A stretch of 27,572 nucleotides of DNA from a virus (lineage: Duplodnaviria > Heunggongvirae > Uroviricota > Caudoviricetes): positions 1 through 27,572 of IMG/VR virus record IMGVR_UViG_2639762873_000006. One strand, written 5' to 3'. Under the pieces are notes generated by a model. That model was given only the letters and a program-made list of their open reading frames with translations. It was not told where the DNA came from and did not search any database. Both the position numbers and the translations under genes were made by a program. Below, piece after piece: positions 616 to 15,996 of this stretch; position 1 is the stretch's first letter; each line of letters opens with the position of its first letter.

Positions 616-833
616 ATGATCTACATGAGCTAAACGTACTCTATATAGATACAGTACGGAAACTTACCGAAGAAGATCTACTAGGTGAATTTGGTCTTAC
701 CAGTGAGATGATAAACACTTTGAAGGAGATCCCACTTGCAAATATAGTTAAACTAACCGATTGTACTCAGTTACTGTTAAAACCAAATGAGGCTGTATTA
801 TGGGAAGCATTAAAAGCATTACCGCAAAAATGA
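612..833 (+). CDS. hypothetical protein (73 aa)
   Basis: ORF with ATGA overlap to both the upstream and downstream genes. Confidence 0.5.
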   Translation: MNDLHELNVLYIDTVRKLTEEDLLGEFGLTSEMINTLKEIPLANIVKLTDCTQLLLKPNEAVLWEALKALPQK

Positions 834-1483: not shown

Positions 1484-1490
1484 GAATAAC

Positions 1491-1523
1491 AATAGCTACT
1501 ACACAAATAAAGTAGTAGCTATT
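1491..1523 (+). terminator. perfect 12-bp stem hairpin (AATAGCTACTAC / GTAGTAGCTATT, 9-nt loop)
   Basis: Inverted repeat read directly from the sequence just after the stop at 1481-1483; no T-run, so it may be a processing or attenuation site rather than an intrinsic terminator. Confidence 0.45.
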
Positions 1524-1591
1524 ACTAAATATCATAGCTATAATAATTCACATCAAACATCACCTCACACAATCACTACAAGGATTTACTA

Positions 1592-1972
1592 ATGAAAAAT
1601 CTCTTTACCCTAGCTGTACTCGCTACGGCTACAATCACTACTGGCTGTACTACTATAACGCCTGCTTTTATGAATGAAGCCGTAGTAGGTGATATTAACG
1701 GTCGTACACTAGTATTATTCCCCGTAAATGGTGGTAAAGAGTATCGCCCACAATTCAGTAGTGATTGTCAGCCTATGCTATTGGGTGAAGAACGCCCATC
1801 TACTGGTAGCTGTATTATTGCCGCCGACCGACTTACAAATATTCATAGCTTCGAAGAACATAAAGCCCACGGCCCCCACAAAAACACCACTAAGATAGTT
1901 GATCGTTCAAATAATTACGGTACAGAATTTGAGTTATCGAAACCAACTAATTATATAGACGATAATCTGTGA
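1592..1972 (+). CDS. putative lipoprotein (126 aa)
   Basis: N-terminus MKNLFTLAVLATATITTGC: basic residue, hydrophobic core, lipobox-like TTGC with Cys at about position 19; RBS AAGGA 8 nt upstream. Confidence 0.6.
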   Translation: MKNLFTLAVLATATITTGCTTITPAFMNEAVVGDINGRTLVLFPVNGGKEYRPQFSSDCQPMLLGEERPSTGSCIIAADRLTNIHSFEEHKAHGPHKNTTKIVDRSNNYGTEFELSKPTNYIDDNL

Positions 1973-2151
1973 TGAAGAAAACAATATTTGCCGTACTTTT
2001 AGTTATGGGGACTGCATATTACTATGATATAATAAAATACATTAACCCTACTTATTAAATTGCAGTCGCCGTAATCAAAAACACTGTCATTATCTGGCAT
2101 CAACAATGCCATTGATTCTGATAAAGTAGATAATCCCGAATGGATGAATTT

Positions 2152-2532
2152 ATGAAAAAGATTGTACTGTCTGCATTACTGTTAGTAGCCCCTTCGGTAC
2201 TGGCAGTAAATGTAATACTCCCTGATGATGGTTTATATCGTTGCGGTGTTGAATCGTGGGAACAGGTAGGAAAGCGAGTAGTAAAGACTGGTTATTATGG
2301 TATGACTGGTTATGTGAGTATTGATAACCGTGCTGTTAGTGTGAAGTTTAGGGATATGAATATTTCATTCAGCCCTGTTTCAAAACTTAAAAGCGGTCGC
2401 CTGATGGCCTATGCCGTAGATACTGACCAGTACGATATTATTATTAGTGCAATCAATGGTAAAACACAGTATATGGTCAGCAATGAGAATAATCCCGTAT
2501 TTTTGAACTTCTCCAATTGTATTATTGAATAA
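2152..2532 (+). CDS. secreted protein, paralog A (signal peptide MKKIVLSALLLVAPSVLA)
   Basis: Start at MKK chosen by alignment to paralog B; shared GLY(R/Q)C motif and C-terminal (F)(S/Q)NC(I/V) motif. Confidence 0.6.
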   Translation: MKKIVLSALLLVAPSVLAVNVILPDDGLYRCGVESWEQVGKRVVKTGYYGMTGYVSIDNRAVSVKFRDMNISFSPVSKLKSGRLMAYAVDTDQYDIIISAINGKTQYMVSNENNPVFLNFSNCIIE

Positions 2533-2541
2533 GGAATAGAA

Positions 2542-2928
2542 ATGAAAAAGGTTATCGTATCTGCATTACTGTTAGTAGCTCCTTCGGTACTGGCTAACAC
2601 TCACTCTCTACCAGAGCAGGGATTGTATCAATGTGATGTGAAAGTAGTTGAAATGCTGGGTGATACTCCAGTAGAAAAATCTTCTTATTCTGGTGCAGGT
2701 CACGCTAAAGTTAATAGTGATGGTTTTATCCTTAACTTCGGTGCAATGACTCACGCCACCGGACCAATAGAATCTAATGATTCAATGACAATGGCTTATG
2801 ATAATGATAAGCAGCGATACTTCCTTGCAACAATGGGAAGTAAAGAGCAAAACGATATTACTTTTATCTTCTTATTGAGATCTGATACTCGTAATTACTA
2901 CTTTCAAAACTGCGTTAAAATAAAATAA
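2542..2928 (+). CDS. secreted protein, paralog B (signal peptide MKKVIVSALLLVAPSVLA)
   Basis: RBS AAGGAA upstream; signal peptide nearly identical to paralog A at nucleotide level; mature part diverged. Confidence 0.65.
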   Translation: MKKVIVSALLLVAPSVLANTHSLPEQGLYQCDVKVVEMLGDTPVEKSSYSGAGHAKVNSDGFILNFGAMTHATGPIESNDSMTMAYDNDKQRYFLATMGSKEQNDITFIFLLRSDTRNYYFQNCVKIK

Positions 2929-2937
2929 GGGATATAT

Positions 2938-3147
2938 ATGTCAGAGAAACTAATTAAAGCAATCCGTAATATCACGGAATATAATATGAGTATTGAGCGT
3001 ATCATTGTTAGTACCGAAGACCAGCAACACTATTATAGTATTAATCCTTATAAGGAAACTGTAATAAAGGTAGCAGACCAATACGGCAAACCAATTGAAG
3101 GGGAAGTAGAAATACCACAAATACCGCCATTATTCGATACTAACTAA
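2938..3147 (+). CDS. hypothetical protein (69 aa)
   Basis: ORF with RBS AAGGGA; followed by an intrinsic terminator. Confidence 0.5.
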   Translation: MSEKLIKAIRNITEYNMSIERIIVSTEDQQHYYSINPYKETVIKVADQYGKPIEGEVEIPQIPPLFDTN

Positions 3148-3153
3148 TAATAT

Positions 3154-3180
3154 AGCCCACTAATAAAAGTGGGCTTTTTA
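3154..3180 (+). terminator. rho-independent terminator (AGCCCACT / AGTGGGCT stem, then TTTT)
   Basis: 8-bp perfect stem, 6-nt loop, T-run, directly after the stop at 3145-3147. Confidence 0.7.
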
Positions 3181-3198
3181 ATCTAATAAGGAAAGTAA

Positions 3199-3672
3199 AT
3201 GAAAATTATAAAAAACATTCCTTCACTTCCAGATGTAGAAGTGACACTAAGTAGCCGTACTAATGAAATTGTATTAGTACACAATACTAAAACTGGTCAT
3301 ACAGTAGTAGAGAATAATGATTCATGGTATGAGGGAAACACCGATAAAAAATCACATTGGGGTGATCATATCGATGATGCAGCAGCTTTTCATAGCTTCG
3401 CACAGAATCGCTGTACTAATCCCACTACTAAACCAGATCAAATTAGTGATTTAGCATTAGGTACGTTTTGCTTTCATAATGTATTAGAAGAAGATCTTGT
3501 ATTTGAAAACACTGATTACCATGCTGCAAGGTTATCCGGTATAGGTCGTGTAGTACCCACTGATTATAATAGTGTGACGGTATATGATCCAAATAATAAC
3601 CCACCAACCACTATTACAGGCGATGCAGCAGAAATTATAGTTCGCCTTCTATCAATGACAGTAACCAACTAA
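3199..3672 (+). CDS. hypothetical protein (157 aa)
   Basis: ORF with RBS AAGGAAA; no recognisable motif. Confidence 0.55.
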   Translation: MKIIKNIPSLPDVEVTLSSRTNEIVLVHNTKTGHTVVENNDSWYEGNTDKKSHWGDHIDDAAAFHSFAQNRCTNPTTKPDQISDLALGTFCFHNVLEEDLVFENTDYHAARLSGIGRVVPTDYNSVTVYDPNNNPPTTITGDAAEIIVRLLSMTVTN

Positions 3673-3678
3673 TAATCT

Positions 3679-3700
3679 AGCCCACTACTCACAGTGGGCT
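3679..3700 (+). repeat. second copy of the AGCCCACT / AGTGGGCT hairpin (different loop, no T-run)
   Basis: Same 8-bp stem as at 3154-3175 with conserved flanks (TAATAAT.TAG upstream, AATCTAA..AGGAAA downstream). Confidence 0.5.
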
Positions 3701-3725
3701 ATTCAATCTAACGAGGAAAAATATA

Positions 3726-4382
3726 ATGACAGGTAAAGAACTATTTGAAGAATTTATTATGCACGATCACCGCAAAGGACTTACATGTACTATTGATATT
3801 CGTCCTTCCAGTAAGCCGGGATTCGAACTAATCGGGGTAGGTCATTTCAATTTAGGTAAAGGTTATCGTTTCTATCTCAGCGAAGACTGCGTAGAAATCC
3901 GTGATAATCTATCCCGCTTACGTCATGAACATCGTAAAATAGTATCAGAACGGTTAGACGATCCAATAGAGGCACTAGATTCAATTATCTATTCTTCTCT
4001 ATATGGTGATTATCATGGCTGTACTAATCGTTATTTTGGCGGTGTATTAGTTCACTACGCATTAGAACTAAAATCAAAGATAACCGTAACTATATCTACT
4101 GATGAAAACTTATTGTTCAAAGATCTACCGCCAGATGTACAGGAAGAAATGAAGTATGATGTATATCTAAAAGATCGCAAACGTGTAGTAGCTTATGACT
4201 CATTACAATATAGTGATAATAAAGAATTTATCCTACAACACTATAAACCATGTGCCCCACATCCAAATCGTGTAGTATTCACAGATGGAACGGCAGAACA
4301 GCTACAAGATCAATCACCAGTACATATACCTGGCTATACTGAATACGTAACTAGCTATACTGGTAAACGCCACTTCAAGTAA
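3726..4382 (+). CDS. hypothetical protein (218 aa)
   Basis: ORF with RBS GAGGAAAA; no recognisable motif. Confidence 0.6.
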   Translation: MTGKELFEEFIMHDHRKGLTCTIDIRPSSKPGFELIGVGHFNLGKGYRFYLSEDCVEIRDNLSRLRHEHRKIVSERLDDPIEALDSIIYSSLYGDYHGCTNRYFGGVLVHYALELKSKITVTISTDENLLFKDLPPDVQEEMKYDVYLKDRKRVVAYDSLQYSDNKEFILQHYKPCAPHPNRVVFTDGTAEQLQDQSPVHIPGYTEYVTSYTGKRHFK

Positions 4383-4395
4383 TCCCATCCCCTAA

Positions 4396-4422
4396 ATACT
4401 CCTATACATGCTATAGGAGTAT
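4396..4422 (+). promoter_or_regulatory. perfect 11-bp stem hairpin whose 3' arm contains the GGAG Shine-Dalgarno of the next gene
   Basis: ATACTCCTATA catgc TATAGGAGTAT; GGAG at 4416-4419 lies in the right arm, 9 nt before the ATG at 4429. Confidence 0.4.
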
Positions 4423-4428
4423 CACACC

Positions 4429-4815
4429 ATGAATACAATCTACCTACACTTCCCTGATGGAACGTATAAGGCCATAGAAAGCACCACAGGCCGACAGGAA
4501 TCAGGATACATACCATCACGCAAGGATAAGCTAATAACCGCTCATATCATCACACAGGACGGTTACGAGCTATTCATAGATACCTATACACTAACGCTTA
4601 AGTATAAATACATTACATTAAACTACTCACGCTTCACCATAGGCCGTACTAATTACCCTATCAATGCACTAGATACATTCAGCGGTAGTGAGCTACCACA
4701 CTTAACCCGACTAAGGGAACTACGCGACGAGATCTTACAGTACCGTACCGTAGATGGTCTGCCTATCTCTTATCGTTGTGATGTAATCGTTAGTAATATG
4801 GTGATACTCAAGTAG
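4429..4815 (+). CDS. hypothetical protein (128 aa)
   Basis: ORF; its RBS is embedded in the upstream hairpin. Confidence 0.55.
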   Translation: MNTIYLHFPDGTYKAIESTTGRQESGYIPSRKDKLITAHIITQDGYELFIDTYTLTLKYKYITLNYSRFTIGRTNYPINALDTFSGSELPHLTRLRELRDEILQYRTVDGLPISYRCDVIVSNMVILK

Positions 4816-5013: not shown

Positions 5014-5132
5014 TTATAATAAAAATACGTGAGAAATTTTACATAAAACAAACAAATATATAGATAAAACCTATTAGTACCGAAATAGATAGAAAATACC
5101 AATCAATGGAAAATGAATAGGAATTGCATAAA

Positions 5133-5702
5133 ATGGCAAAAAATAAAGACGATGGAACCCGCTATTCCTGGCAAGAAATCGCCGACCGATTCGGCGTAGA
5201 ACATTCCACAGTATCGCGTATCTGGTCGGGGAAAGGATTAGATATTAGCTGGCCTAAGAAATTAGTAGACGACTGGTTACTAGCGAACGTAATCGAACCA
5301 ATGCGTAATGGTGATGTGAAGGGAATGATCCATAAAGCCACACTACGCAAACTAGAAGCAGAAGCAGACCTAAAAGAATTAGAACTACGACAGCAATCTG
5401 GTGAACTAATTCCGGTAGCAGTAGTACAGCAAACATTATCACAATATTTCTATCAACTACGTCAGGTACTAAGAAGTATACCGGCAGCAAGTTACGTAGA
5501 ACTATTTGAATCACAGGACGCTTTAGAATTAAAAATTAAATTACAGGACAAGATAGACCGCCAGCTAGAGGAAATAGGCGGCTATGAATATGAGGGAACA
5601 TATGAAGAACAACTACCAGAAGATGATGAAGATCCTAACGAGGGCGGCGAAGTCGATCCTACCTCCGAAGAAACAACTACCCGCAGAGTGGGTAGAGAGT
5701 AA
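5133..5702 (+). CDS. terminase small subunit (HTH DNA-binding, acidic C-terminus)
   Basis: Immediately upstream of the large terminase; helix-turn-helix-like SWQEIADRFGVEHSTVSRIW near the N-terminus; track start 5124 is TTG, so the first ATG at 5133 (RBS AGGAA) is preferred. Confidence 0.6.
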   Translation: MAKNKDDGTRYSWQEIADRFGVEHSTVSRIWSGKGLDISWPKKLVDDWLLANVIEPMRNGDVKGMIHKATLRKLEAEADLKELELRQQSGELIPVAVVQQTLSQYFYQLRQVLRSIPAASYVELFESQDALELKIKLQDKIDRQLEEIGGYEYEGTYEEQLPEDDEDPNEGGEVDPTSEETTTRRVGRE

Positions 5703-7497
5703 CCTAGTCTTCCCCGATGGCGAACTACAAGGGCAACGCGTCAAATTATTTGCCTTTCAACATAAGCCCATCAACGATATAGTTAATCCACGTGTACGTA
5801 AAGTGGTACTAATGAGTAGTGCTCAACTTCTCAAGACAACGGTACTACAGAATAGTATGTACTACTTCCTCGCCAATGATCCTAGTAACATGATATTTGG
5901 CGGTGCTACTGGTGGTACTACTAGTAAATTTAGGACTGGTAAATGGCAAGCAGTCATCGAAGCATGTTCGGTACTGAAAAATCTCGTTAGTAATAAGAAC
6001 GACAAGAACTATACGAACAATGACAAGACACAACAAAATTTAGATGGTACGTTTACCTACTTCCTGTCATTGGGTAGTAGTGCTTCACTACGTGGTCTAA
6101 CGGCCCCTCGCGTATTTTTGGATGAGATATCCAATGTCAACGCCGACGGCGAAGAAGGCAATCCCTTGAAGCTGGCAGAACAGAGAACGAAAGCATTCAG
6201 TAACCCCCTTATTATGTGCTGTTCTACTCCACTTGATGAACATGACCTGATTACCCAACAGTACGAACAAAGTAATAAACAAAAGTTTTATGTACCTTGC
6301 CCTCACTGTAACCACTCACACGAAATGGTATTTGAAAATGTTAAATTCGAATGGAAGATTATTGAAGGCGGTCGCCGTCGTATTCCTGATGCAGACACTG
6401 CAAGGCTAGAATGTCCTAAGTGTAATAATGTAATAACAGAAGCAGAACGTGTACGAATGATCCGTAGGGGTGAATGGATAGTAACAGCACCAGAAGTAAC
6501 CGATATAATGGGCTATCACATATCTAGACTCTATTCCCCTATCAACTCGATCAAATCGATTGTAGCAGACTTTGCCGAAGCACATTATACCTTTGACCTT
6601 GCATCATTCTATAACAACGTCTTAGGACTACCATATATTGATAAAGAGAATACCGACCATGATTTAGTATTATTGGAGAACCTAAGAGATAGTGAAATAG
6701 ATATTAATAATATACCCGACGATGTACTAGGGGTGGTATACGGCGTCGATCAGCAGCTCGACAGGTTGGAGGTAACTACACTAGGAGTAAGTGAGAAGAA
6801 TCTCTATGTTTTAGATCATCGCAGTATATACGCAATTGACTGTACTAAAATCGAAGCCCCAGCATGGAATAAACTAACGGCCTTTGCCAATGCACCATTG
6901 AAAACACATTCGGGTAAACCACTTAAAGTATTAGCCGGATTCGTCGATAGTAGTAATGGCAACGCAACCAGTACCGTATATCGTTATTGCAGTAACTCTA
7001 CTATCTTTAAACCTATTAAGGGTGGTACGTCTAACTCAAACCCACTATTCAAAGGTAGTACCGCTGGTGGTCACTCCCTGATTAACCTTAATGTAAACTT
7101 AGGTAAAACGAACGTTAGACAATTACTAAACCGTGCTGTATCCGATAGTGAAAATAGTAAGGAAGTACAAATACATTTCAGCCATTCATTACCAGATGAT
7201 TACTTTATTCAGATTACATCCGAGAAACGAGTGATAAAGGCTGGTGCCTGGGTATGGGTGAAAAAGGTTAGTAGTGCGAGGAATGAAACTCTCGATTGTC
7301 TTAATTACTCGCTTATATGTTTCCAGTGGTATCTATCTAAATTGGGTAGTCAACCATTCCGACAACTAAGGGAATATAACGCGAAACAAAAAGAGAAAGC
7401 AGGACTAAATAAAGAAGTAAATACAGAAGAAGCACCAACTAAGCCAACTCCAAAACGAGTAATAAGGCCGCGTAAAGGTGGTGGATTCTTTAAATAA
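5584..7497 (+). CDS. terminase large subunit, lambda gpA-like family
   Basis: 637 aa, close to lambda gpA length; N-terminal LPAEWVESN...FP motif resembles the gpA N-terminus; zinc-ribbon-like CPHC ... CPKC; C-terminal ETLDC motif. The 5' end overlaps the small subunit by about 119 nt; alternative start ATG 5602 has a GAGGGA RBS. Confidence 0.85.
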   Translation: MNMREHMKNNYQKMMKILTRAAKSILPPKKQLPAEWVESNLVFPDGELQGQRVKLFAFQHKPINDIVNPRVRKVVLMSSAQLLKTTVLQNSMYYFLANDPSNMIFGGATGGTTSKFRTGKWQAVIEACSVLKNLVSNKNDKNYTNNDKTQQNLDGTFTYFLSLGSSASLRGLTAPRVFLDEISNVNADGEEGNPLKLAEQRTKAFSNPLIMCCSTPLDEHDLITQQYEQSNKQKFYVPCPHCNHSHEMVFENVKFEWKIIEGGRRRIPDADTARLECPKCNNVITEAERVRMIRRGEWIVTAPEVTDIMGYHISRLYSPINSIKSIVADFAEAHYTFDLASFYNNVLGLPYIDKENTDHDLVLLENLRDSEIDINNIPDDVLGVVYGVDQQLDRLEVTTLGVSEKNLYVLDHRSIYAIDCTKIEAPAWNKLTAFANAPLKTHSGKPLKVLAGFVDSSNGNATSTVYRYCSNSTIFKPIKGGTSNSNPLFKGSTAGGHSLINLNVNLGKTNVRQLLNRAVSDSENSKEVQIHFSHSLPDDYFIQITSEKRVIKAGAWVWVKKVSSARNETLDCLNYSLICFQWYLSKLGSQPFRQLREYNAKQKEKAGLNKEVNTEEAPTKPTPKRVIRPRKGGGFFK

Positions 7498-7507
7498 GGA
7501 AAATAAA

Positions 7508-7999
7508 ATGGCAATAGTTCGCAAAGTAACTTTAAAAGGCGATATCTTTAAAGGCGAGACTATTACATTCGATTACCCCGCAGGGTCAGAAGTAGACTTG
7601 ATTGATCCAAACGGGGTAAAGACCTCATATACATATCCCTTCCCAGATATTGATACTAGTAACTGGGTAGCGGGTGTATGGACTGCAATTATTAACAGTA
7701 CCGTAGCATATGGTGTACAACAATTCGAAGTAATAGATCCAACTTCTAAAGCGTCAGAATATAACGACCTGATGCAAATCATCAAAGATATTGACCAGAT
7801 CATCATGGATAGAATTAAGGGCGGTGGTGTATTAAGTCAATCAATTCAAAATAAATCATTAACATATGAAAGTAGTGAAATACTTATGAAACTACGCCCT
7901 GTATATGTCAGTCGTGCAAATGATTTACTTTCGGATATGAAAGGATTCAATACTGGATGTCCTATCAAATCAATTACTACATTTAGGAGATCTCGCTAA
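7508..7999 (+). CDS. hypothetical protein between terminase and portal (163 aa)
   Basis: ORF with RBS AAGGAAA; occupies the position of lambda W but is larger and shows no similarity I can recognise. Confidence 0.5.
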   Translation: MAIVRKVTLKGDIFKGETITFDYPAGSEVDLIDPNGVKTSYTYPFPDIDTSNWVAGVWTAIINSTVAYGVQQFEVIDPTSKASEYNDLMQIIKDIDQIIMDRIKGGGVLSQSIQNKSLTYESSEILMKLRPVYVSRANDLLSDMKGFNTGCPIKSITTFRRSR

Positions 8000-9495
8000 T
8001 GTTCGGATGGAATAAAAAGAAAGTAGAAGAACCAAAACAAAAAGTATTAGTACAGAAGCCAGTGAAGCTAATGAAGAATAACCCGATGAAACGTGCAATG
8101 ACTTCCCTTAATTTGGGATCATCTAGCCCTGTTATCTCATTTGGCTTCACTGGCGGTAATCAGGCTGGCAATATTAACGCCATCATTAACCGTAATCTAC
8201 CTGTTATGGTTGCAGTAAGTCGTGAACTCTCAATTAAGAACGGTATTGTAAAGAAATATGTCAGTACGAATAGTGCGGGTGTAACGGGTGCAGATGGCCT
8301 ATATATTCGTCCTTGTACCCATAGCTCCGACGACGAACAAGTTAACCAGTCAATCGATAAACAGATTGAAGATGCATTCTATGCATGGGCCGAAGATCCT
8401 AAAGCGTTTTCCCGCTGCGGTACTCTAGATATCAGTACCTTCCAACGTCTGGTAGAACGTACTCGATCAGTAGATGGTGATTGTTTCATTCGCGTTCACA
8501 GTAAGCCAGGAGAGCTACCACAGATTGAGATTATCGATTCTATGCGTATCTCGACCTATGAGAACCAATTACTACCGTCGGGAAACTTTATCAGCAATGG
8601 TATTGAATTTGATATCAATACAAACCGTCCTGTAGCGTACTGGGTAACACGTTATAACCCCATCATGTACAACTATATGATTGGTGAGCGTGAGCGAGTA
8701 CCAGCAGACGAGATCCTACACCTATTCCAGCAGGACTACCCAACACAGCAACGCGGTATTCCAGATGTGCATTCCGGTACTGAAAAGTTAAAAGAGTTAG
8801 AGGAATTTATGGCGGCGGCAATTACTTCCCGTAAGGTTGCAGCGTCCGCAATGGCCTTTATCACTAATCCAGATAGTGACGATGTACAGCTACTGACTGA
8901 TGACAGTGTATCATACTATGATCAGGACTATCTAAATCCGGCTGCAATCGTAGAACTACAGGCAGGTCAGGATATTAAAACAGTAAACCCATCTCAGACT
9001 ACCGACGGTATTCAGGAGTTTATTGATAACCAAATGATGATGATTGCAATGGGATTAGATATTACAAAACAATCTCTAACTTCTGATACTAGTAATGCTT
9101 CATTCAGTGCTGCAAAGTTAACTGATAAATTACAGCAATCAACATTTAAAAGCCGTACTAATGCTTTAATTGTATCTGTACTAAAACCTCTTTATATTGC
9201 ATGGTTAAAATCTGCAATGCTAAATAGTAGTACATTAAGCAATTTAAATTTTAGTGATTTTAATAAATTGACTCATGCACAATATGTACAGACGCGTCAA
9301 ATCTCCCTAGATCCATATAAAGACCTTCAAACCGAAGTATTGGCAATTGATAACGGTTTAAAGAGTAAGGCAATGGTAATTTCGGAGATGGGATACGATC
9401 CGGTTATTGTCATGGAAGAAATCAACAAGGAAAATAAAGAAAATGGAATTGAACAAGAACCAGACGAGGGCGATCAATCTAACACAAATCAATAA
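7999..9495 (+). CDS. portal protein
   Basis: 498-aa ORF immediately after the terminase module, strong AGGAG RBS, acidic C-terminal tail; assignment is by position and size, not by a recognised motif. Confidence 0.65.
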   Translation: MFGWNKKKVEEPKQKVLVQKPVKLMKNNPMKRAMTSLNLGSSSPVISFGFTGGNQAGNINAIINRNLPVMVAVSRELSIKNGIVKKYVSTNSAGVTGADGLYIRPCTHSSDDEQVNQSIDKQIEDAFYAWAEDPKAFSRCGTLDISTFQRLVERTRSVDGDCFIRVHSKPGELPQIEIIDSMRISTYENQLLPSGNFISNGIEFDINTNRPVAYWVTRYNPIMYNYMIGERERVPADEILHLFQQDYPTQQRGIPDVHSGTEKLKELEEFMAAAITSRKVAASAMAFITNPDSDDVQLLTDDSVSYYDQDYLNPAAIVELQAGQDIKTVNPSQTTDGIQEFIDNQMMMIAMGLDITKQSLTSDTSNASFSAAKLTDKLQQSTFKSRTNALIVSVLKPLYIAWLKSAMLNSSTLSNLNFSDFNKLTHAQYVQTRQISLDPYKDLQTEVLAIDNGLKSKAMVISEMGYDPVIVMEEINKENKENGIEQEPDEGDQSNTNQ

Positions 9496-11305
9496 TGCAA
9501 TTGATGAAACTGATAGAACCGTAGAACTCTCTTTTGCCTCCGAAATTCCAGTAGTACGCGATATTAAAGGGACTCTCTACAATGAGATCCTTTTATGTAG
9601 TCCAGAAAACGTAGATTTAAGCCGTCTAAATGACGGTGCACCTGTACTAGTAGAACATGATGCAATGCGTCAAGTTGGTATAGTTGAAAATGCTCGCGTA
9701 GATATGGATAAGGTATGTCGTGCTACTGTACGTTTTAGTGCACTAGGAACCGCAAATACTATCTTCGGTATGATCGTAGAAGGTATTCGCCCTAAAGTAT
9801 CCGTAGGTTATAACATTCTAGATTACTACCTAGACGGTAATGATCTAATCGTTTCAAAATGGCAACCCTACGAAGTATCTAGCGTATCCACTCCGGGAGA
9901 TAATAGCGTAGGTGTGGGAAGATCACTAAATAGTAATGATGAAATTACTTTAGAGGATCAACCCCAAATGGAACCAGAACAAAAAGAAGAACTAGTACCG
10001 GAAGTAGAAATTATTGAAGAAGCACCAGTAGAAGAAGTGCAACCAGAAGTAATTGAAGAATCCGTAGTAGTCGAAAGTGAAGAATCAGTAGAAGTAGTAG
10101 AAGAACCCGAAGTGATCGAGGAAGTACAAGAAGAAGTACAACCGGAATTAGTAGAAGAACGTTCTATTGCAGTAACTGATATTCAAGAAAGTATAAATAA
10201 AGAAGTAGAAGCAAATCGTATTCGCGAACTTCAATCTATCTCTTCGGTACTAGGTGTTAGTACAGAAGAAGCAATTAAAAACGGTGTAAGCGTAGAAGAC
10301 TTTAAACGCTCACTAAATACAGATAATAAATCAATTGATAAGGATATCAAAAAAATGGAAAAGAAATCTCTAATTAACGAAGGTCTACGCAGTCTAAAAG
10401 GTGAAGCACACGATCTAGAAACTTTCGAAAAAGGTGCTCGCGGTTATAATGCAGACCTAAACGCAATGGTACGTAGCACCGCTGATACCACTTCTACCGT
10501 AACTGCGGCAGGTCTAGTAAAAGAAGAACTATCCGACGCGTATATTCGCCAACTACTAGCACAAACCGTACTAGGTCAACTACCAGTGACTGTATTTGGT
10601 GGCCTTGCTGGTCGTGGCAACTTCTCTATCCCGCGTGCTAAAGGTATGAACCCAGCAGCTAAATTCTATAACGAAGATGAAGCAGTAACCGACGGCTTCG
10701 AAACCTTTGATAAGATCACTCTAAAGCCTCGCATGTTCGCAGCAGGTATCAAGATCACTAAAGCAATGCTACTAAGCAACGCAGCAACCGAACGTTATGT
10801 TACCGACGAGCTACTACGCCAATGTTCTAACGGTCTAGAATCAGCAGTATTTGCACAAATCGCTACTACCGTTCCAGTACAACAAACCGCAGTATCTGGT
10901 CAAGTATCCGAAGCAGACGTACAGAAAGCTATCGAAGTTATCTCCGCTAAAAACGTAGATATCAATCGTTGTGTAGCTATCGTGCATCCTTCTATGCTTG
11001 CAAAACTACGTCAAACCGCAGTATTGAATAACACCGCAGCCGTAGCAATGGTAGCAGGTCATCGTTATGACATGTGGTTGAATGACGAAGTACGTGTAAT
11101 TGAATCTACTTTCGTAGCAGCAGATACCATTCTAATCGGTGATTTCTCTGAGCTAATCTTTGCTAACTGGAATGAAGGCCAAGAACTAGATTTTGATGAT
11201 ACTACCTACCGTGCAGCACAAACTATTGCAATTCGTAGTTTCCAATACCTAGATGTAGCTATCGCACACGAAGAAGCATTTGTACAACTACAACTAAAAC
11301 CATAA
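9443..11305 (+). CDS. prohead protease (HK97/S78-type) - acidic linker - major capsid protein (HK97 fold) fusion
   Basis: N-terminal about 170 aa carry protease-like motifs (GAPVLVEHD, SVGYNILDY, EVSSVSTPGD); Glu/Val-rich repeat linker; C-terminal about 300 aa look like an HK97-family capsid protein. Track start 9407 is TTG; ATG 9443 with an AAGGAAA RBS is preferred. Confidence 0.8.
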   Translation: MELNKNQTRAINLTQINNAIDETDRTVELSFASEIPVVRDIKGTLYNEILLCSPENVDLSRLNDGAPVLVEHDAMRQVGIVENARVDMDKVCRATVRFSALGTANTIFGMIVEGIRPKVSVGYNILDYYLDGNDLIVSKWQPYEVSSVSTPGDNSVGVGRSLNSNDEITLEDQPQMEPEQKEELVPEVEIIEEAPVEEVQPEVIEESVVVESEESVEVVEEPEVIEEVQEEVQPELVEERSIAVTDIQESINKEVEANRIRELQSISSVLGVSTEEAIKNGVSVEDFKRSLNTDNKSIDKDIKKMEKKSLINEGLRSLKGEAHDLETFEKGARGYNADLNAMVRSTADTTSTVTAAGLVKEELSDAYIRQLLAQTVLGQLPVTVFGGLAGRGNFSIPRAKGMNPAAKFYNEDEAVTDGFETFDKITLKPRMFAAGIKITKAMLLSNAATERYVTDELLRQCSNGLESAVFAQIATTVPVQQTAVSGQVSEADVQKAIEVISAKNVDINRCVAIVHPSMLAKLRQTAVLNNTAAVAMVAGHRYDMWLNDEVRVIESTFVAADTILIGDFSELIFANWNEGQELDFDDTTYRAAQTIAIRSFQYLDVAIAHEEAFVQLQLKP

Positions 11306-11318
11306 GGATATAACCACT

Positions 11319-11639
11319 ATGAGGCATTTTACTAGCAATCAAATTGATTCTACTTTCTTAAATGCCTTTGGTGAACCTATCACAATTAACGGGGCGAGTT
11401 TTACGGCAATCGTAGATCATCGCCCCGTTGTCGTTGATTCTAGCACTGAAGGACTAGTAGAAAGTACAGAATCATTCTTATCAGTAAAGACTGATGACCT
11501 ATCTACTTACAATATCGCTATTGATTCAGTGGTAGGCGTACAGGGTACTACATACACTGTATATAATATCTATAATGATTTGAGTGGTATTAGTGAAGTA
11601 TTCATTAGACCGTCAGCAATTAATAATTACGGGTGGTAA
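11319..11639 (+). CDS. head-tail attachment protein (lambda FII-like)
   Basis: 106 aa, directly after the capsid gene; pattern ITINGASFTAIVDHRP ... SFLSVKTDDL ... GTTYTVYNIYND resembles lambda FII as I recall it. Confidence 0.45.
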   Translation: MRHFTSNQIDSTFLNAFGEPITINGASFTAIVDHRPVVVDSSTEGLVESTESFLSVKTDDLSTYNIAIDSVVGVQGTTYTVYNIYNDLSGISEVFIRPSAINNYGW

Positions 11640-11640
11640 T

Positions 11641-12033
11641 ATGAATCTTCTAACTCAAGTACAGAAAACATTAAGAGACAGTTTAAATAATATCATCCCA
11701 ATTCGCAAAGCAATGAATATTGCAGCAGGTCGTGATCTCTTTATTCTCGTTTCAACCAATCAAACCTACCAATCAGTAAACTATAATAATCAAAATCAAA
11801 TGGGTAATTTTACCTTTCAATTCCTATTAGTACCAGAACCTTCAATTACATTACCCGCTGATACCTTCGGTACTATTTTTGATTACTTCCGTACTAATAC
11901 GATCATGGAATTTGGTAATAATGGCGTACAACTCCATAGCTATGACGTAGCTGACAGTGAACTAGTAACTGATCCGTCAACTGGTTATCAATCGCTATCT
12001 TTTGCAATAAATATTGTAGCAACTTTAAAATAA
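11641..12033 (+). CDS. putative tail terminator/neck protein (U-like by position)
   Basis: 130 aa starting at ATG 11641 (overlaps the upstream stop); sits where a tail terminator is expected; similarity to lambda U is weak. Confidence 0.35.
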   Translation: MNLLTQVQKTLRDSLNNIIPIRKAMNIAAGRDLFILVSTNQTYQSVNYNNQNQMGNFTFQFLLVPEPSITLPADTFGTIFDYFRTNTIMEFGNNGVQLHSYDVADSELVTDPSTGYQSLSFAINIVATLK

Positions 12034-12046
12034 AAGGAATTAAAAG

Positions 12047-15000
12047 ATGGCAGATCAAATTTTTACAGGGAGTGGTTTTAAATTATTTTATAATGACGAT
12101 ACCGCAAACCGTATCCCCGATAACGCAGGGAACGAGCTAGTAAATGAATTGGCGGCTATGCCTTCATTCGGTATTGATAGCCAAGTACAAACTATTGAAG
12201 TATATAACAGTGAATTTTCAGAGAAACTACTCGCAGAACAGAACGTAAACGATATTGATATTGTTGTTAACTACGTACCAGATTGCACCGCTCACGCATT
12301 TTTAGATCAAGCGACCGAAGATCAGACCGAGTTCCAGCTAACACTACAGTACGCCGTAACTGATGGTATCATCTCCTACAGTATGGTGAATGGTATGATT
12401 AGTTCCGCTCGCCTTGCTGGTGATAAAGACTCAGTAGTTACTAAATCATATACCTTTACCCCTACCGACGTTCTAGTACGTGATGGACAGGCACCATTGA
12501 GTACCGGACTAGTTGTAGGATCATATGGCGTAGGTAGTAACGGCGTAGACGTACCACAGTACGAACCACAGTTACCAAATGGCAACAGTTTTATCAAAGT
12601 ACCAGCAGCACGCAATGATAACCCAGCTAGTGCGGATCTAATGGGTATTGGTCTTATCGATTCCGGTACATTCTCCAGTATTGCAATGACTAAATCCGGT
12701 ACATTGGCAATCTATGCAAAGAACCAGAATACAGCATGGACGCGTATACTTACTGCAACTCAGATTAGTGATCAGTATGTACCACTTACGCGTAAGGTTA
12801 ATGGTAAAGCACTAAATGCAGATATTACTATTACTAAAGTAGATGTAGGACTAGGTAACGTAACTAATGATGCACAATTGAAAATAGCTAGTAACCTTTC
12901 TGATTTAAATAACGTCAACACAGCCCGTACTAACTTAAAAGTAGCTCGTTTTGAAGAAACTAGACCAGACCTAAGTACAATTTATTCTACTGATGATAAG
13001 TCTGGATATAAAGTAGTAGTACGTAGTGATGGCTATTGGGGTGCAATGAATGCAGACGGCACAGTCACTAAAGGTCTATCGATTGACATGGGCGGTACTG
13101 GTGCAAATACATTAGCACAAGCTCAAGCTAATCTAGGTATTGTAACTAGTGCGGCACAGGATGGAAAATATCTAGCTAAGGCAAGTAACCTTTCTGATTT
13201 ACCAAGTAAACCAACAGCCCGTACTAACTTAGGATTAGGTACAGCAGCTACATATAATGTAAGTAGTTCCGGTGCAAACGTTCCATTAATGAGTAGTGCA
13301 AATACGTGGACTGGAATACAATATTTTGGCAATGCACAATTTACATCTACCTATGTTAACCCGTTATTGATTCATAGTCCTACACCTACAATCTATTTGA
13401 AAGATACAGATACAAACGGCTTAGGGATGAAATTAATTGCAGATGGTAGTGTATTCCGTATGCAAGATGATACCTCCGCTGAAACGTGGGCTTTTTCTTA
13501 TAATTACAGTACGAAAGTAGTTACAATGCCATCCTTGCAACTTGCAACTAAACTACAAGTAGCAGAAGGCGGTACGGGTGCAACAAATTGGAAACAGGCA
13601 GCATATAACCTTAACGTTATGCCATATAACCGCAATAGTTTAACTGCAAGTGATAATCTCAATAATTTTGGTGGTCTTAATGCTGGTGTATATTTTTGTG
13701 CTTCAAGTGCTTATGCAACCCCTGCAAATAACTACCCAGAAGCTAACGCAGGTACAGTAATAGTTTATCAGAACGCCGCAAATAGTAGTGATGGTTGTAC
13801 ACAATTTTACTATCCATTCAATACTAACAAAGCATATAAACGTATTCTAAGATTTACCAGTCCAACTACTTCTACGTGGTCATCATGGGCAGAGATCCTA
13901 ACCTCCGAACATATTACCCCCGGTAATATCCCTCGTTTAAATGGTGGTAATACGTGGAATGGTAACCAATCTATTGATACTGGTTATCTAACACTAGGTT
14001 TAAAAAATACCAATGCAACCGCATTTGAAATTGGTAGCCAAACTACAAAAAACTCAGCTTATATTGACTTCCATACAAGCGGTTTAACTAATGACTATGA
14101 TACACGTATTATTGCAGAAACTACTACATCCACTGCAAATGGACAAGGTAAATTATCCTTCGTTGGTGGTGAGTTTAACTTTAATAATAATATTACAGGT
14201 CAGGGAAATATTACGGCTAATGCCTTTATCTCTAAAACTGTAGTTAGTGCAACTGGTGCTATCACTGGTGCAAGCCTCAATACTGGATCTGGTGCTATCA
14301 CTGGTGGTGCAATTAGCGGTACTACATTGACTACAACAGGAGCGGCGAAAGTAGGTAGTATTGATTCTACTGGTGGTCTATATGGGACTGGTGTAGTACA
14401 GGCAGATTCAGCCACTACTGGTACTTATATTAGAATGGGTAATGGTACAACTGATAACTATATCACAAGTAACAACTTCCCAGCAGGCGGTACACAACGC
14501 TATCTACAGTTCAAGAATGACGGTACTGTTAGAATCTCCGACCAGTTGATTATGCACAATAACTTAGATGCAAGTGGTAGCGACTTCCAAGTTACGGCTA
14601 ATAACTTCCGTATAGTAACTGGTGGTAATGGTCTACAGATCAAAAACAATTCAGGATCTGTATCATCTTATCTATCTGGCATTGGGTCTACTAACGTTCG
14701 CGAATGGTACATAGGTAAAGGTGGATCAGGTAAAGGGATTGCATGGTGGAACGATATGTCAGGCGGTCACGGTGTTGATTTAGGGGCAGATGGTAACATC
14801 ACATTAAATACCCTTGCCAGTACCGGAAACGTTAACATACGCGGTACTATGTCAACTACTGGTAGATTATCCGTAACAGGTGATGTAACAGCTTCCGGTA
14901 TAGTTAGAGCTAATACTACTTTTTCAGTTAATGGTACTAGTGGAACTTCTAACGCCCACCTATGGTACTACGGTCACACTGGAGCAAGTCGCGGCGTAAT

Positions 15001-15481
15001 CTATGCGGGAAGTGGCGGTACTATTAACTTCCGACCGGATCGTAATGATGCTGGGGGAGCTAATGGATACTCCGCAGCACTAGATTATACTGGTAAATTT
15101 ACTTGTATGTCGTTATCTCAAACATCCGACCAACGAGCTAAATATGATGCCGCTGATATTAGTGATTCACTAGGTAAGGTACTACAGCTAACTGGTAAGA
15201 CTTATAAAATGAAAGTTACACCAGAAGTAGAAGTAGATGGCGTGGGATTCTTTGCTCAGGAAGTAGAAAAATTCTTCCCAGAAGCTGTATCATCCGTTGG
15301 TAGTGCATATACTCAAGAAGGCGAAGAAATCGAAAACCCACTAGGTCTAGATTATCAGGCTATTTCTGTACTATATGCTGGGGCTATTAAAGAGCTAAAT
15401 GCTAAAGTAGAAGACCAACAATTACAACTCGATGAACTACGTGCTGTAGTAACTCAATTACTAATCGCACAGAATAAATAA
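12047..15481 (+). CDS. tail-tube-domain / tail-fibre fusion protein with C-terminal S74-type intramolecular chaperone domain
   Basis: Residues 1-150 align along their length with the 152-aa tube protein (15538-15996), roughly one-third identical by eye; two phage tail-fibre repeats (NLSDL...ARTNL); Gly/Thr/Ser/Asn-rich fibrous middle; C-terminal SDQRAKYD ... GFFAQEVEKFFPEAV ... coiled coil matches the S74 autoproteolytic chaperone pattern. Confidence 0.75.
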   Translation: MADQIFTGSGFKLFYNDDTANRIPDNAGNELVNELAAMPSFGIDSQVQTIEVYNSEFSEKLLAEQNVNDIDIVVNYVPDCTAHAFLDQATEDQTEFQLTLQYAVTDGIISYSMVNGMISSARLAGDKDSVVTKSYTFTPTDVLVRDGQAPLSTGLVVGSYGVGSNGVDVPQYEPQLPNGNSFIKVPAARNDNPASADLMGIGLIDSGTFSSIAMTKSGTLAIYAKNQNTAWTRILTATQISDQYVPLTRKVNGKALNADITITKVDVGLGNVTNDAQLKIASNLSDLNNVNTARTNLKVARFEETRPDLSTIYSTDDKSGYKVVVRSDGYWGAMNADGTVTKGLSIDMGGTGANTLAQAQANLGIVTSAAQDGKYLAKASNLSDLPSKPTARTNLGLGTAATYNVSSSGANVPLMSSANTWTGIQYFGNAQFTSTYVNPLLIHSPTPTIYLKDTDTNGLGMKLIADGSVFRMQDDTSAETWAFSYNYSTKVVTMPSLQLATKLQVAEGGTGATNWKQAAYNLNVMPYNRNSLTASDNLNNFGGLNAGVYFCASSAYATPANNYPEANAGTVIVYQNAANSSDGCTQFYYPFNTNKAYKRILRFTSPTTSTWSSWAEILTSEHITPGNIPRLNGGNTWNGNQSIDTGYLTLGLKNTNATAFEIGSQTTKNSAYIDFHTSGLTNDYDTRIIAETTTSTANGQGKLSFVGGEFNFNNNITGQGNITANAFISKTVVSATGAITGASLNTGSGAITGGAISGTTLTTTGAAKVGSIDSTGGLYGTGVVQADSATTGTYIRMGNGTTDNYITSNNFPAGGTQRYLQFKNDGTVRISDQLIMHNNLDASGSDFQVTANNFRIVTGGNGLQIKNNSGSVSSYLSGIGSTNVREWYIGKGGSGKGIAWWNDMSGGHGVDLGADGNITLNTLASTGNVNIRGTMSTTGRLSVTGDVTASGIVRANTTFSVNGTSGTSNAHLWYYGHTGASRGVIYAGSGGTINFRPDRNDAGGANGYSAALDYTGKFTCMSLSQTSDQRAKYDAADISDSLGKVLQLTGKTYKMKVTPEVEVDGVGFFAQEVEKFFPEAVSSVGSAYTQEGEEIENPLGLDYQAISVLYAGAIKELNAKVEDQQLQLDELRAVVTQLLIAQNK
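12890..12937 (+). repeat. tail-fibre repeat unit, copy 1 (48 nt)
   Basis: AGTAACCTTTCTGATTTA + 12 nt + ACAGCCCGTACTAACTTA; both 18-nt blocks identical to copy 2. Confidence 0.8.
13184..13231 (+). repeat. tail-fibre repeat unit, copy 2 (48 nt)
   Basis: Same two 18-nt blocks as copy 1 with a different 12-nt spacer; encodes SNLSDL....ARTNL. Confidence 0.8.
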
Positions 15482-15537: not shown

Positions 15538-15996
15538 ATGGCTTTTTCAATTATGACTGGTGCTAACCTAAAGGTAGAGTTAGGCACTTATACAGCAGGT
15601 AGTGATACCCCAGCAATCGATTTTAAAGAGATTCCAGAAGTGGCAACCTTTGCTACTAGTGGTTTTGAATCTACTGTAATTGACGTAGTTACTTACAACA
15701 GTAGTTTTAACCGTAAGCTACTAGGTACTAAATCCATCCCAGATATCGAACTAACTGTAAACTACCTAGCAGACAACGCAGTACACCAACAGTTAGAAAA
15801 ACTTGCAGACGATCAAGTACGTACTCAGGTTAAAATCACCTACTACGAAAACGCAACCCGTACTACTGGCTTCTTTGTAATCTATAATGCTTTCGTATCT
15901 GCTAACTTGATTGCAGGTAGTAAAGATGAAGTAGTAACTAAGGCATTCACCCTAGCGGTAGATGGCGGTCCTCTTTCTTCTGGCGTTAACCCATAA
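15538..15996 (+). CDS. major tail (tube) protein
   Basis: 152 aa, strong RBS, directly upstream of the chaperone pair and tape measure gene; followed by a strong intrinsic terminator. Confidence 0.7.
   Translation: MAFSIMTGANLKVELGTYTAGSDTPAIDFKEIPEVATFATSGFESTVIDVVTYNSSFNRKLLGTKSIPDIELTVNYLADNAVHQQLEKLADDQVRTQVKITYYENATRTTGFFVIYNAFVSANLIAGSKDEVVTKAFTLAVDGGPLSSGVNP

What the first reader, a model, noticed from the sequence alone, without database searches (positions are those of the whole stretch)
9443..11305. Single ORF fusing prohead protease, acidic repeat linker and major capsid protein
Protease-like motifs in the N-terminal 170 aa, then about 70 aa of Glu/Val/Pro-rich near-tandem repeats, then a capsid-like domain of about 300 aa, all in one frame. 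In lambda and HK97 these are separate or nested genes. The fusion implies self-processing and fixed protease-to-capsid stoichiometry. The repeat linker is also repetitive at DNA level (GAAGAAGT.CAACC.GAA units) and may vary in length between relatives.
Basis: partly seen in the sequence, partly recalled or inferred. Interest (0 to 1): 0.6.

Follow-up and report, generated by a model that had tools for sequence, protein, structure and literature searches.

The report
Protease–scaffold–capsid fusion gene of a prophage
This is a real but already well-known type of phage gene that joins the head-maturation protease, a scaffold and the major capsid protein in one reading frame; the one fresh point is a conserved internal ribosome-binding site suggesting it also makes a second, protease-less product.

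Summary
The ORF at 9443-11305 (620 aa) is real. The identical protein is in NCBI as an E. coli "phage major capsid protein", and hundreds of enterobacterial genomes keep it as one ORF, so it is not a sequencing artefact. It has four parts, not three:
- an HK97-type (S78, assemblin-fold) prohead protease, aa ~20-163, with invariant H72 and S120;
- a disordered acidic linker, aa ~166-243;
- a helical scaffold segment resembling the HK97 delta domain, aa 244-344;
- an HK97-fold capsid domain, aa 345-620.

The linker varies in length between relatives, but it is low-complexity sequence, not a tandem repeat.

The architecture is common and already catalogued: 4,865 protein clusters, PHROG 617 and 4523, NCBIfam NF045541, and the actinophage label "capsid and protease fusion". 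In a solved relative (roseophage R4C, PDB 8GTA) the virion model holds only the C-terminal 268 of 629 residues. HK97's cleavage residue K103 aligns with conserved R344, which predicts a 276-aa mature protein.

In 68 of 74 relatives an in-frame ATG with a gene-start-like Shine-Dalgarno follows the protease domain (here M176, ATG 9968). That implies nested products, as in lambda C/Nu3.

The parts
9443..11305 (+). Whole fusion ORF (620 aa, 68.4 kDa precursor): protease, linker, scaffold and major capsid protein. Its first 53 nt overlap the 3' end of the portal gene.
   Evidence: phrog_617 end-to-end at 1.8e-89; identical protein P0001 in NCBI
9427..9431 (+). AAGGA Shine-Dalgarno for the full-length start (ATG 9443). 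Anti-SD duplex energy -5.4 kcal/mol.
9500..9931 (+). HK97-type (S78, assemblin-fold) prohead protease domain, aa ~20-163. Candidate catalytic His72 (codon 9656-9658) and Ser120 (codon 9800-9802), plus invariant Glu144 (codon 9872-9874).
9953..9970 (+). Putative internal ribosome-binding site (GAGGA, 9953-9957) and in-frame ATG 9968-9970 (Met176). Predicted start of a nested 445-aa (49.1 kDa) linker-scaffold-capsid product without the protease.
   Evidence: SD energy -5.8, equal to real gene starts in the window. M176 invariant in 118 of 118 close homologs. Family-wide Met peak. SD enrichment p = 5e-15 and 1e-36.
9938..10171 (+). Disordered, acidic, length-variable linker (aa 166-243). It contains two dispersed copies of an 18-nt unit, at 10031-10048 and 10130-10147.
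   Evidence: pLDDT ~42; composition and shuffle test; indels confined here
10172..10474 (+). Helical scaffold segment resembling the HK97 delta domain (aa 244-344). It ends at conserved Arg344, the predicted maturation cleavage site R344|S345.
   Evidence: Helices H245-270 through H339-343. Family profile aligns to HK97 gp5 from residue 17. HK97 K103 shares the column of R344. R in 86 of 95 relatives.
10340..10357 (+). Second possible internal start: AAGGA (10340-10344) plus ATG 10355-10357 (Met305). Weak candidate.
   Evidence: SD energy -6.0. M305 invariant in close homologs only. Secondary family-wide peak 300-315 aa from the C-terminus, possibly confounded by conserved Lys-Glu codons.
10475..11302 (+). 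Predicted mature major capsid protein, HK97 fold (aa 345-620, 276 aa, 30.0 kDa).
   Evidence: Pfam PF05065. Foldseek top hits are R4C, phiXacJX1, D3, HK97 and GTA capsids. PDB 8gta at 7.9e-75 to the family profile. Mass.
5124..9495 (+). Upstream head-module context: TerS (5124-5702), lambda gpA-type TerL (5584-7497), gpW-like head-tail joining protein (7478-7999), lambda-family portal (7999-9495). There is no separate protease or scaffold gene.
11319..11639 (+). Downstream head-tail attachment (gpFII-like) gene, starting 13 nt after the fusion's stop codon. There is no decoration or scaffold gene in between.

Best explanation
The gene encodes a capsid-assembly polyprotein of a siphovirus-type prophage. 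From N to C it has four parts: an HK97-family (MEROPS S78, assemblin-fold) serine protease; a disordered acidic spacer of variable length; a helical scaffolding segment equivalent to the HK97 delta domain; and an HK97-fold major capsid protein.

Proposed mechanism. The capsid and scaffold parts drive co-assembly into a procapsid around the lambda-type portal. The N-terminal parts, including the protease, would lie inside the shell, by analogy with the internal delta domain of the HK97 prohead. Because the protease is covalently attached to a capsid subunit, it needs no separate targeting signal. Once assembled, the protease cuts after Arg344, and probably at other sites in the scaffold, linker and itself. 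This releases everything N-terminal and leaves a 276-aa (30 kDa) mature shell protein.

Most likely the ORF is also translated from an internal Shine-Dalgarno and ATG at Met176, giving a 445-aa linker-scaffold-capsid protein without protease. The protease:capsid ratio would then be set by relative initiation, as in lambda C/Nu3 and herpesvirus UL26/UL26.5, and would not be fixed at 1:1.

Shown here: the domain identities, the conservation of the fusion, the conserved catalytic His and Ser, and the conserved internal SD+ATG. Inferred: protease activity, the exact cleavage site, use of the internal start, and the ratio of the two products.
Against: Pfam Peptidase_S78 does not detect this protein's own N-terminus even at E <= 10, and TIGR01543 scores 16 bits against a cut-off of 59. 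The direct profile-to-gp4 alignment is statistically weak (8.3 bits; hhalign probability 3%). That H65 and S114 are the catalytic residues of HK97 gp4 rests on my recollection of Duda et al. 2013, which I could not retrieve. No protein-level data exist for this gene. The 8GTA chain boundary shows what was modelled or deposited, not a measured N-terminus. SD-like sequences can arise from conserved codons: a spurious-looking peak of SD+ATG 30-45 aa from the C-terminus may come from the conserved Trp-Gly-Gly codons, which I did not verify. The loci are phylogenetically related, so the p-values are optimistic. Six of 74 loci lack a boundary ATG, and no relative was found with the gene cleanly split at this boundary.
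Confidence: 0.75

Rival explanations
1. Only the full-length 620-aa polyprotein is made, so every capsid subunit carries its own protease (strict 1:1). The internal SD+ATG is unused, or is a relic of an ancestral gene boundary.
For: The ORF is continuous and no relative is split at the boundary. Six of 74 loci have no boundary ATG. No protein data are available.
Against: A relic RBS should have decayed at the observed divergence (24-59% protein identity). Instead, SD strength at the boundary ATG nearly equals that of real starts and is highly position-specific. M176 is invariant in 118 of 118 close homologs while its neighbours vary.
Confidence: 0.2
2. The internal SD-like element acts as a translational pause that helps the protease domain fold before the linker and capsid parts emerge. 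It would not be an initiation site.
For: The SD-like motif lies right after a folded domain.
Against: A pause model does not explain the co-occurring, correctly spaced in-frame ATG, nor the Met enrichment at this position.
Confidence: 0.04
3. The long ORF is an artefact: a sequencing error or frameshift has merged a separate protease gene and a separate capsid gene.
For: None found.
Against: The identical 620-aa protein and more than 500 homologs come from independent assemblies. 76 of 85 viral loci keep the frame open. The same architecture occurs in the isolated phages VP882, ECO1230-10, PT1, DCP80 and R4C. Indels in the linker are all in-frame.
Confidence: 0.01
4. The N-terminal domain is a catalytically dead protease-like module that serves only as an internal core or scaffold protein. 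Maturation would be done by a host enzyme or not at all.
For: The Pfam S78 model does not detect this particular sequence.
Against: The His, Ser and Glu positions are invariant across the family. The fold is a confident match to active capsid proteases. No other protease is encoded in the module. The mature R4C capsid model lacks the N-terminal 361 residues.
Confidence: 0.03

Closest known systems
Prohead protease / major capsid protein fusion proteins (PHROG 617 and 4523; NCBIfam NF045541 'scaf_prot_MCP2'; the SEA-PHAGES label 'major capsid and protease fusion protein' in Arthrobacter clusters AM, AU, AN, Microbacterium cluster EE, and Rhodococcus phage RRH1)
   Same: A single ORF with an N-terminal S78-type protease and a C-terminal HK97-fold capsid protein, placed directly after the portal gene with no separate scaffold gene (PMC5513430; PMC9671004 and PMC6606914).
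   Different: The window protein belongs to the phrog_617 lineage. It matches NF045541 and phrog_4523 only over the protease and early scaffold part (aa 17-290) and is far below the NF045541 cut-off (116 bits against 525), so its capsid half is a different lineage from that curated subfamily. The actinophage fusions are described as sharing little or no sequence similarity with one another (PMC5513430); I did not compare them with this protein.
HK97 gp4 (protease) plus gp5 (delta-domain scaffold fused to the capsid protein)
   Same: The protease family and fold, a helical scaffold fused N-terminally to the capsid protein, and a maturation cut after a basic residue at the homologous position (HK97 K103 = window R344). 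Mature sizes are 282 and 276 aa.
   Different: In HK97 the protease is a separate gene that is recruited non-covalently. Here it is covalently joined through a ~78-aa disordered acidic spacer. The HK97 chainmail cross-link residues K169, N356 and E363 are not conserved: the aligned window residues are V415, Q593 and F600.
Nested protease/scaffold genes: lambda C/Nu3, HSV-1 UL26/UL26.5, HFTV1 gp17/gp17.5
   Same: An in-frame internal start downstream of the protease domain would give an abundant protease-less assembly protein alongside a full-length protease-bearing form. In lambda both starts have Shine-Dalgarno sequences (bioRxiv 10.64898/2026.09.13.751334; window and family evidence).
   Different: In those systems the capsid protein is a separate gene. 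Here the nested product would be scaffold plus capsid protein. From my own knowledge, lambda gpC belongs to a different protease family (S49, ClpP/SppA-like). Use of the internal start is only inferred here.
Roseophage vB_DshS-R4C major capsid protein (vBDshSR4C_006; PDB 8GTA)
   Same: A member of the same fusion family, with the same gene order (TerL, head-tail joining, portal, fusion). The family profile matches it at 7.9e-75. It is the only solved structure of the family.
   Different: Its linker is Pro/Ala/Thr-rich and not acidic. Identity to the window protein is low: the local alignment covers only the capsid part at E = 4e-7, with 19% identity in the structural alignment. The structure paper (PMC10276861) does not mention the protease or the processing.

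Membership tests
MEROPS S78 / Pfam PF04586 (HK97-type caudovirus prohead serine protease) | Sequence match to the family profile above the curated threshold | tested here: not met
   No PF04586 hit on the window N-terminus even at E <= 10. TIGR01543 scores 16.3 bits against a cut-off of 59. By transitivity, however, homologs 41-47% identical in this domain pass the threshold (ECO1230-10 38.6, DCP80 36.1 and VP882 23.5 bits, against 21), and 64 of 75 family representatives hit S78 at E <= 0.01.
MEROPS S78 / Pfam PF04586 (HK97-type caudovirus prohead serine protease) | Herpesvirus-assemblin / phage prohead-protease fold | tested here: met
MEROPS S78 / Pfam PF04586 (HK97-type caudovirus prohead serine protease) | Conserved catalytic His and Ser, equivalent to HK97 gp4 H65 and S114 | tested here: met
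   H72 and S120 are invariant in 96 and 107 sequences. They align with gp4 'FFNH65K' and 'MS114VGF' (the alignment statistics are weak). That these are the gp4 catalytic residues is from memory of Duda et al. 2013, not verified here.
MEROPS S78 / Pfam PF04586 (HK97-type caudovirus prohead serine protease) | Proteolytic activity on scaffold and capsid precursors | not testable with these tools
   Only indirect evidence: the mature R4C capsid model lacks the N-terminal 361 residues.
HK97-fold major capsid protein (Pfam PF05065 / TIGR01554) | Profile match above threshold, and the HK97 fold | tested here: met
   PF05065 scores 62.9 bits against 24.2. TIGR01554 scores 66.2 against 27.5. Foldseek top 50 hits are all HK97-fold shells, mostly phage and GTA capsids plus a few encapsulin-type nanocompartments, at E down to 9e-15.
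HK97-fold major capsid protein (Pfam PF05065 / TIGR01554) | HK97-type covalent chainmail cross-link residues (K169, N356, E363) | tested here: not met
   The aligned residues are V415, Q593 and F600, and the family consensus is not K/N/E. This defines HK97 itself, not the fold family.
HK97-like N-terminal delta (scaffolding) domain | A helical segment of ~100 aa N-terminal to the capsid fold, removed at a conserved site | tested here: inconclusive
   Helices at aa 245-343. The profile aligns to gp5 from residue 17 or 39. K103 aligns with R344. Removal is inferred from R4C and not measured.
NCBIfam NF045541 (scaf_prot_MCP2, prohead protease/major capsid fusion) | Whole-protein score at or above the curated cut-off of 525 bits | tested here: not met
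   116.7 bits, and only aa 20-290 match profile positions 1-247 of 634. The architecture is the same, but the subfamily is different.
PHROG 617 (major head protein) | End-to-end profile match | tested here: met
   E = 1.8e-89, with aa 5-616 matching profile positions 7-621 of 626.
Nested protease/scaffold genes (lambda C/Nu3 type) | An in-frame internal start codon with a ribosome-binding site downstream of the protease domain | tested here: met
   Window: GAGGA 9953-9957 and ATG 9968, -5.8 kcal/mol. Family-wide enrichment.
Nested protease/scaffold genes (lambda C/Nu3 type) | Two protein products actually made from one ORF | not testable with these tools
   Needs Ribo-seq, Western blot or mass spectrometry.

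The most novel reading that the evidence does not exclude
Across this very large family of protease-scaffold-capsid fusion genes, a conserved internal ribosome-binding site and ATG just after the protease domain (Met176, nt 9968 here) drives synthesis of a second, protease-less scaffold-capsid protein. The single ORF would then be a three-in-one nested gene that combines the lambda C/Nu3 (or herpesvirus UL26/UL26.5) strategy with the HK97 scaffold-capsid fusion, and it would set the number of proteases per procapsid by relative translation initiation. I found no description of this for protease-capsid fusions in the searchable literature.
Probability: 0.55. Interest if true: 0.55.

Novelty: new member of a known kind. 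Interest (0 to 1): 0.35.

Why it matters
The fusion itself is ordinary, and its main practical value is for annotation. PGAP and most phage records call these ~620-aa ORFs simply "major capsid protein". That label hides the protease and scaffold and overstates the size of the shell protein: about 276 aa end up in the virion. Even the paper on the one solved family member does not mention the missing 361 residues.

The internal start, if real, would explain how such fusions avoid loading hundreds of proteases into each procapsid (415 capsid subunits in the T=7 R4C head). It would also extend the nested-gene logic shared by lambda, herpesviruses and an archaeal tailed virus to a gene that includes the capsid protein itself. 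It is directly testable in an E. coli prophage.

Tried and rejected
- Tandem Repeats Finder on 9800-10400 found nothing. The imperfect 31-nt 'family' from the repeat finder is not above the codon-shuffle expectation, so I rejected the repeat reading.
- Pfam on the isolated N-terminus gave no protease hit.
- Pairwise BLASTP against HK97 gp4 gave nothing.
- The family profile against gp4 gave only a weak alignment, though it is in register.
- The PDB sequence search found no protease; the fold search was needed.
- Megablast of 10 kb against the phage collection found no match, so there is no close isolated relative.
- The afdb50 fold library was not available.
- Duda et al. 2013 on HK97 gp4 could not be retrieved by DOI or PMC id, and a text search for His65/Ser114 found nothing.
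- The BPP-1 capsid paper turned out to be irrelevant, because its capsid protein is uncleaved and not fused.
- The CBASS-escape preprint concerns a protease-scaffold fusion, not a capsid fusion.
- I looked for relatives in which the gene is naturally split at the protease/linker boundary. There were none: the early-ending ORFs were contig truncations or uninformative.
- Met305 as a second internal start has support in close relatives only, and the family-wide signal may be caused by conserved Lys-Glu codons. I keep it only as a weak candidate.
Full report
OBSERVATION

The window has one open frame from TTG 9407 or ATG 9443 to the stop at 11303-11305. Read from ATG 9443 it gives 620 aa. That start has an AAGGA 11 nt upstream and lies 53 nt inside the 3' end of the portal gene.

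The identical 620-aa sequence is already in NCBI as "phage major capsid protein [Escherichia coli]". More than 500 homologs of 585-621 aa occur in Escherichia, Shigella, Citrobacter, Salmonella and Enterobacter assemblies. Among 118 close homologs every indel is in-frame and confined to aa ~172-246, and both flanks are gap-free. A read-through caused by a sequencing error is therefore excluded.

The gene is rare in E. coli. Only 2 of 5,426 complete genomes carry it at 89-93% nucleotide identity, where PGAP also calls it "phage major capsid protein".

ANATOMY

An AlphaFold2 model built on 96 diverse relatives (mean pLDDT 83) divides the protein into four parts, not three.

(1) Residues ~20-163 form a compact beta-rich domain with pLDDT 95-98.

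(2) Residues 165-243 are disordered, with pLDDT ~42.

(3) Residues 245-343 are helical.

(4) Residues ~361-620 form a confident alpha/beta domain.

Part 4 is an HK97-fold capsid protein. Pfam Phage_capsid scores 62.9 bits and TIGR01554 scores 66.2 bits, and the top Foldseek hits are the R4C, phiXacJX1, D3, HK97 and GTA capsids.

Part 1 is a capsid-maturation protease.
- In the viral structure library it matches dozens of annotated HK97-family prohead proteases.
- By sequence, Pfam does not see it, and TIGR01543 gives only 16 bits.
- NCBIfam NF045541 ("prohead protease/major capsid protein fusion protein") matches aa 20-290 at 1e-33, and phrog_4523 ("major head and protease protein") matches at 6e-39.
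- Homologs 41-47% identical in this domain (ECO1230-10, DCP80, VP882) pass Pfam's Peptidase_S78 threshold. So do 64 of 75 diverse family representatives at E <= 0.01, and 72 of those 75 also hit Phage_capsid.
- Across 96-107 sequences at 24-59% identity the only invariant residues are E48, L50, H72, G79, S120, Y123, E144, D153 and R160, all in this domain.
- A profile alignment to HK97 gp4 is statistically weak. It does put H72, S120 and E144 in register with gp4's FFNH65K, MS114VGF and REISVCTFPANE. That H65 and S114 are the catalytic residues of gp4 is my recollection of Duda et al. 2013; I could not retrieve that paper.

Part 2, the linker, is 36% Glu, 21% Val and 9% Pro, with net charge -27. 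It is not a tandem repeat.
- TRF finds nothing.
- The best self-match is typical of codon-shuffled linkers (p = 0.33).
- It does vary in length: there are 55 variants among 118 close homologs, with the aa 165-255 stretch spanning 64-91 residues in the variants listed.
- In relatives the spacer can be Pro/Ala/Thr- or Gln/Thr/Gly-rich instead of acidic. Disorder seems to be the conserved property, not charge.

Part 3 corresponds to the HK97 delta (scaffolding) domain. The family profile aligns to full-length HK97 gp5 from residue 17.

PROCESSING

The family profile matches PDB 8gta_A at 7.9e-75. That entry is the capsid of roseophage vB_DshS-R4C (PMC10276861).

R4C's capsid gene (vBDshSR4C_006) is 629 aa and sits in the same order: TerL, head-tail joining, portal, fusion. 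The deposited chain is exactly residues 362-629, so the N-terminal 361 residues are not in the virion model. The paper does not comment on this.

When HK97 gp5, R4C and the window protein are aligned to the family profile, HK97 K103 falls in the same column as window R344 and R4C R352. K103 precedes the known K103|S104 maturation cut; that is my knowledge, and it is consistent with the 282-residue 1OHG chain. The position is Arg in 86 of 95 relatives.

I therefore predict cleavage at R344|S345, giving a mature protein of 276 aa and 30.0 kDa. The HK97 cross-link residues are not conserved: the aligned residues are V415, Q593 and F600.

CONTEXT

The window is a siphovirus-type prophage. The gene order is:
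- TerS;
- lambda gpA-type TerL;
- gpW-like protein;
- lambda-family portal;
- the fusion;
- a gpFII-like attachment protein;
- tail tube;
- chaperone;
- tape measure;
- distal tail;
- a J-like fibre.

There is no separate protease, scaffold or decoration gene. The same head module is found in VP882, ECO1230-10, PT1, DCP80 and R4C.

HOW COMMON IT IS

The N-terminal domain alone finds 4,865 clusters (at 50% identity) with E <= 1e-3 among 1.84 billion representatives. Of the best 150, 117 are at least 500 aa long, and in the hit table most carry the domain at the N-terminus.

Of 85 loci examined (80 viral contigs plus the window and four phage genomes), 76 keep at least 397 aa in frame after the protease. 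Only two complete ORFs end earlier.

The literature already describes capsid-protease fusions in Arthrobacter clusters AM, AU and AN and in Rhodococcus phage RRH1 (PMC5513430). "Major capsid and protease fusion protein" is a routine annotation (PMC9671004 and PMC6606914). So the architecture is known and widespread.

THE NEW POINT: A CONSERVED INTERNAL START

Met176, at the boundary between protease and linker, is invariant in all 118 close homologs although its neighbours vary. Across 96 diverse relatives Met frequency peaks 10-19 residues after the protease domain: 45 of 960 positions against a background of ~18, the highest bin in the protein.

At the DNA level, 68 of 74 non-redundant fusion ORFs have an in-frame ATG 3-45 codons after the protease, usually exactly one.

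| Codon set | n | Mean anti-SD duplex energy (kcal/mol) | Share <= -4 |
|---|---|---|---|
| Boundary ATG (first in window) | 68 | -5.5 | 81% |
| Other internal in-frame ATGs, same ORFs | 918 | -2.6 | 24% |
| Non-ATG codons, same boundary window | 3,101 | -2.2 | 22% |
| ORF's own start (best candidate, so optimistic) | 73 | -6.9 | 89% |

The boundary ATGs differ from the other internal ATGs at p = 5e-15 and from the non-ATG codons at p = 3e-16.

A core SD motif lies at -16..-5 in 50 of 66 boundary ATGs, against 68 of 898 other internal ATGs (odds ratio 38, p = 1e-36). The strong-SD ATGs are concentrated 0-45 aa after the protease. The amino acids encoded over the SD differ between phages, so a conserved peptide motif is unlikely to explain it.

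In the window, only M1 (-5.4), M176 (-5.8; GAGGA at 9953-9957, ATG at 9968) and M305 (-6.0) have the SD energies of real gene starts, which range from -5.4 to -7.3.

I infer a nested 445-aa (49 kDa) linker-scaffold-capsid product, analogous to lambda C/Nu3, HSV-1 UL26/UL26.5 and HFTV1 gp17/gp17.5 (bioRxiv 10.64898/2026.09.13.751334).

Caveats:
- The loci are related, so the p-values are optimistic.
- SD-like strings can come from conserved codons. A peak 30-45 aa from the C-terminus may be such an artefact of the conserved Trp-Gly-Gly codons (I did not verify this), and the M305-like peak may reflect conserved Lys-Glu codons.
- Six loci lack a boundary ATG.
- There are no protein data.

VERDICT

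It is probably wrong about stoichiometry, and wrong in implying that the arrangement is unusual. The gene is a new member of a known, very large family. The conserved internal start is a modestly novel, directly testable hypothesis.

Noticed in passing
window 12047-15481 and 15538-15996 (+): The 1,144-aa ORF has an N-terminal ~145 aa matching the major tail (tube) protein family phrog_158, fused to ~1,000 aa of tail-fibre-like sequence. The next ORF (152 aa) matches the same phrog_158 positions. So there are two tube-protein paralogs, one carrying a very long fibre extension.
   Followed up: no
window 800-4815 (+): Seven consecutive ORFs of 126-227 aa upstream of the terminase genes have no PHROG match at all.
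   Followed up: no
window 10340-10357: A second internal SD+ATG (AAGGA, then Met305 at 10355; -6.0 kcal/mol) lies inside the scaffold segment. It is invariant in close homologs. A family-wide secondary cluster of strong-SD ATGs lies 300-315 aa from the C-terminus, but conserved Lys-Glu codons may cause it.
   Followed up: partly
L007 (MK882925) 5455-7344; PDB 8GTA: The R4C 'major capsid protein' gene encodes 629 aa, including an S78-like protease domain, but the deposited capsid chain is residues 362-629. The structure paper does not mention the protease or the processing.
   Followed up: yes
L004 (PV211014, Roseobacter phage CRP-831) 1903-4827: The annotated 'major capsid protein' is 974 aa. 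It has ~350 extra N-terminal residues ahead of the protease domain and overlaps the end of the portal gene. This is either a mis-called start or an even larger fusion.
   Followed up: no
L005 (PQ671644, Escherichia phage DCP80) 1-4941: A 141-kb record classified as Straboviridae/Tevenvirinae carries a TerL, portal and protease-capsid fusion module near its left end, with the same gene order as the window's head module. That is unexpected for a T4-like phage and may indicate a chimeric assembly.
   Followed up: no
window 9443-11305 versus E. coli genomes: This prophage capsid gene is rare in E. coli: only 2 of 5,426 complete genomes carry it at 89-93% nucleotide identity. No isolated phage matches 10 kb of the region by megablast.
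   Followed up: partly
window aa V415, Q593, F600 of the fusion (nt ~10685, 11219, 11240): The HK97 chainmail cross-link residues (K169, N356, E363) are not conserved in this protein or in its family, so capsid stabilisation must work differently. No decoration gene is present in the head module.
   Followed up: partly
window 11584-12033 (+): The GTG start listed for this 149-aa ORF has no SD (+0.6 kcal/mol) and overlaps the preceding gene by 56 nt. The real start is probably the downstream ATG (MNLLTQ...).
   Followed up: no
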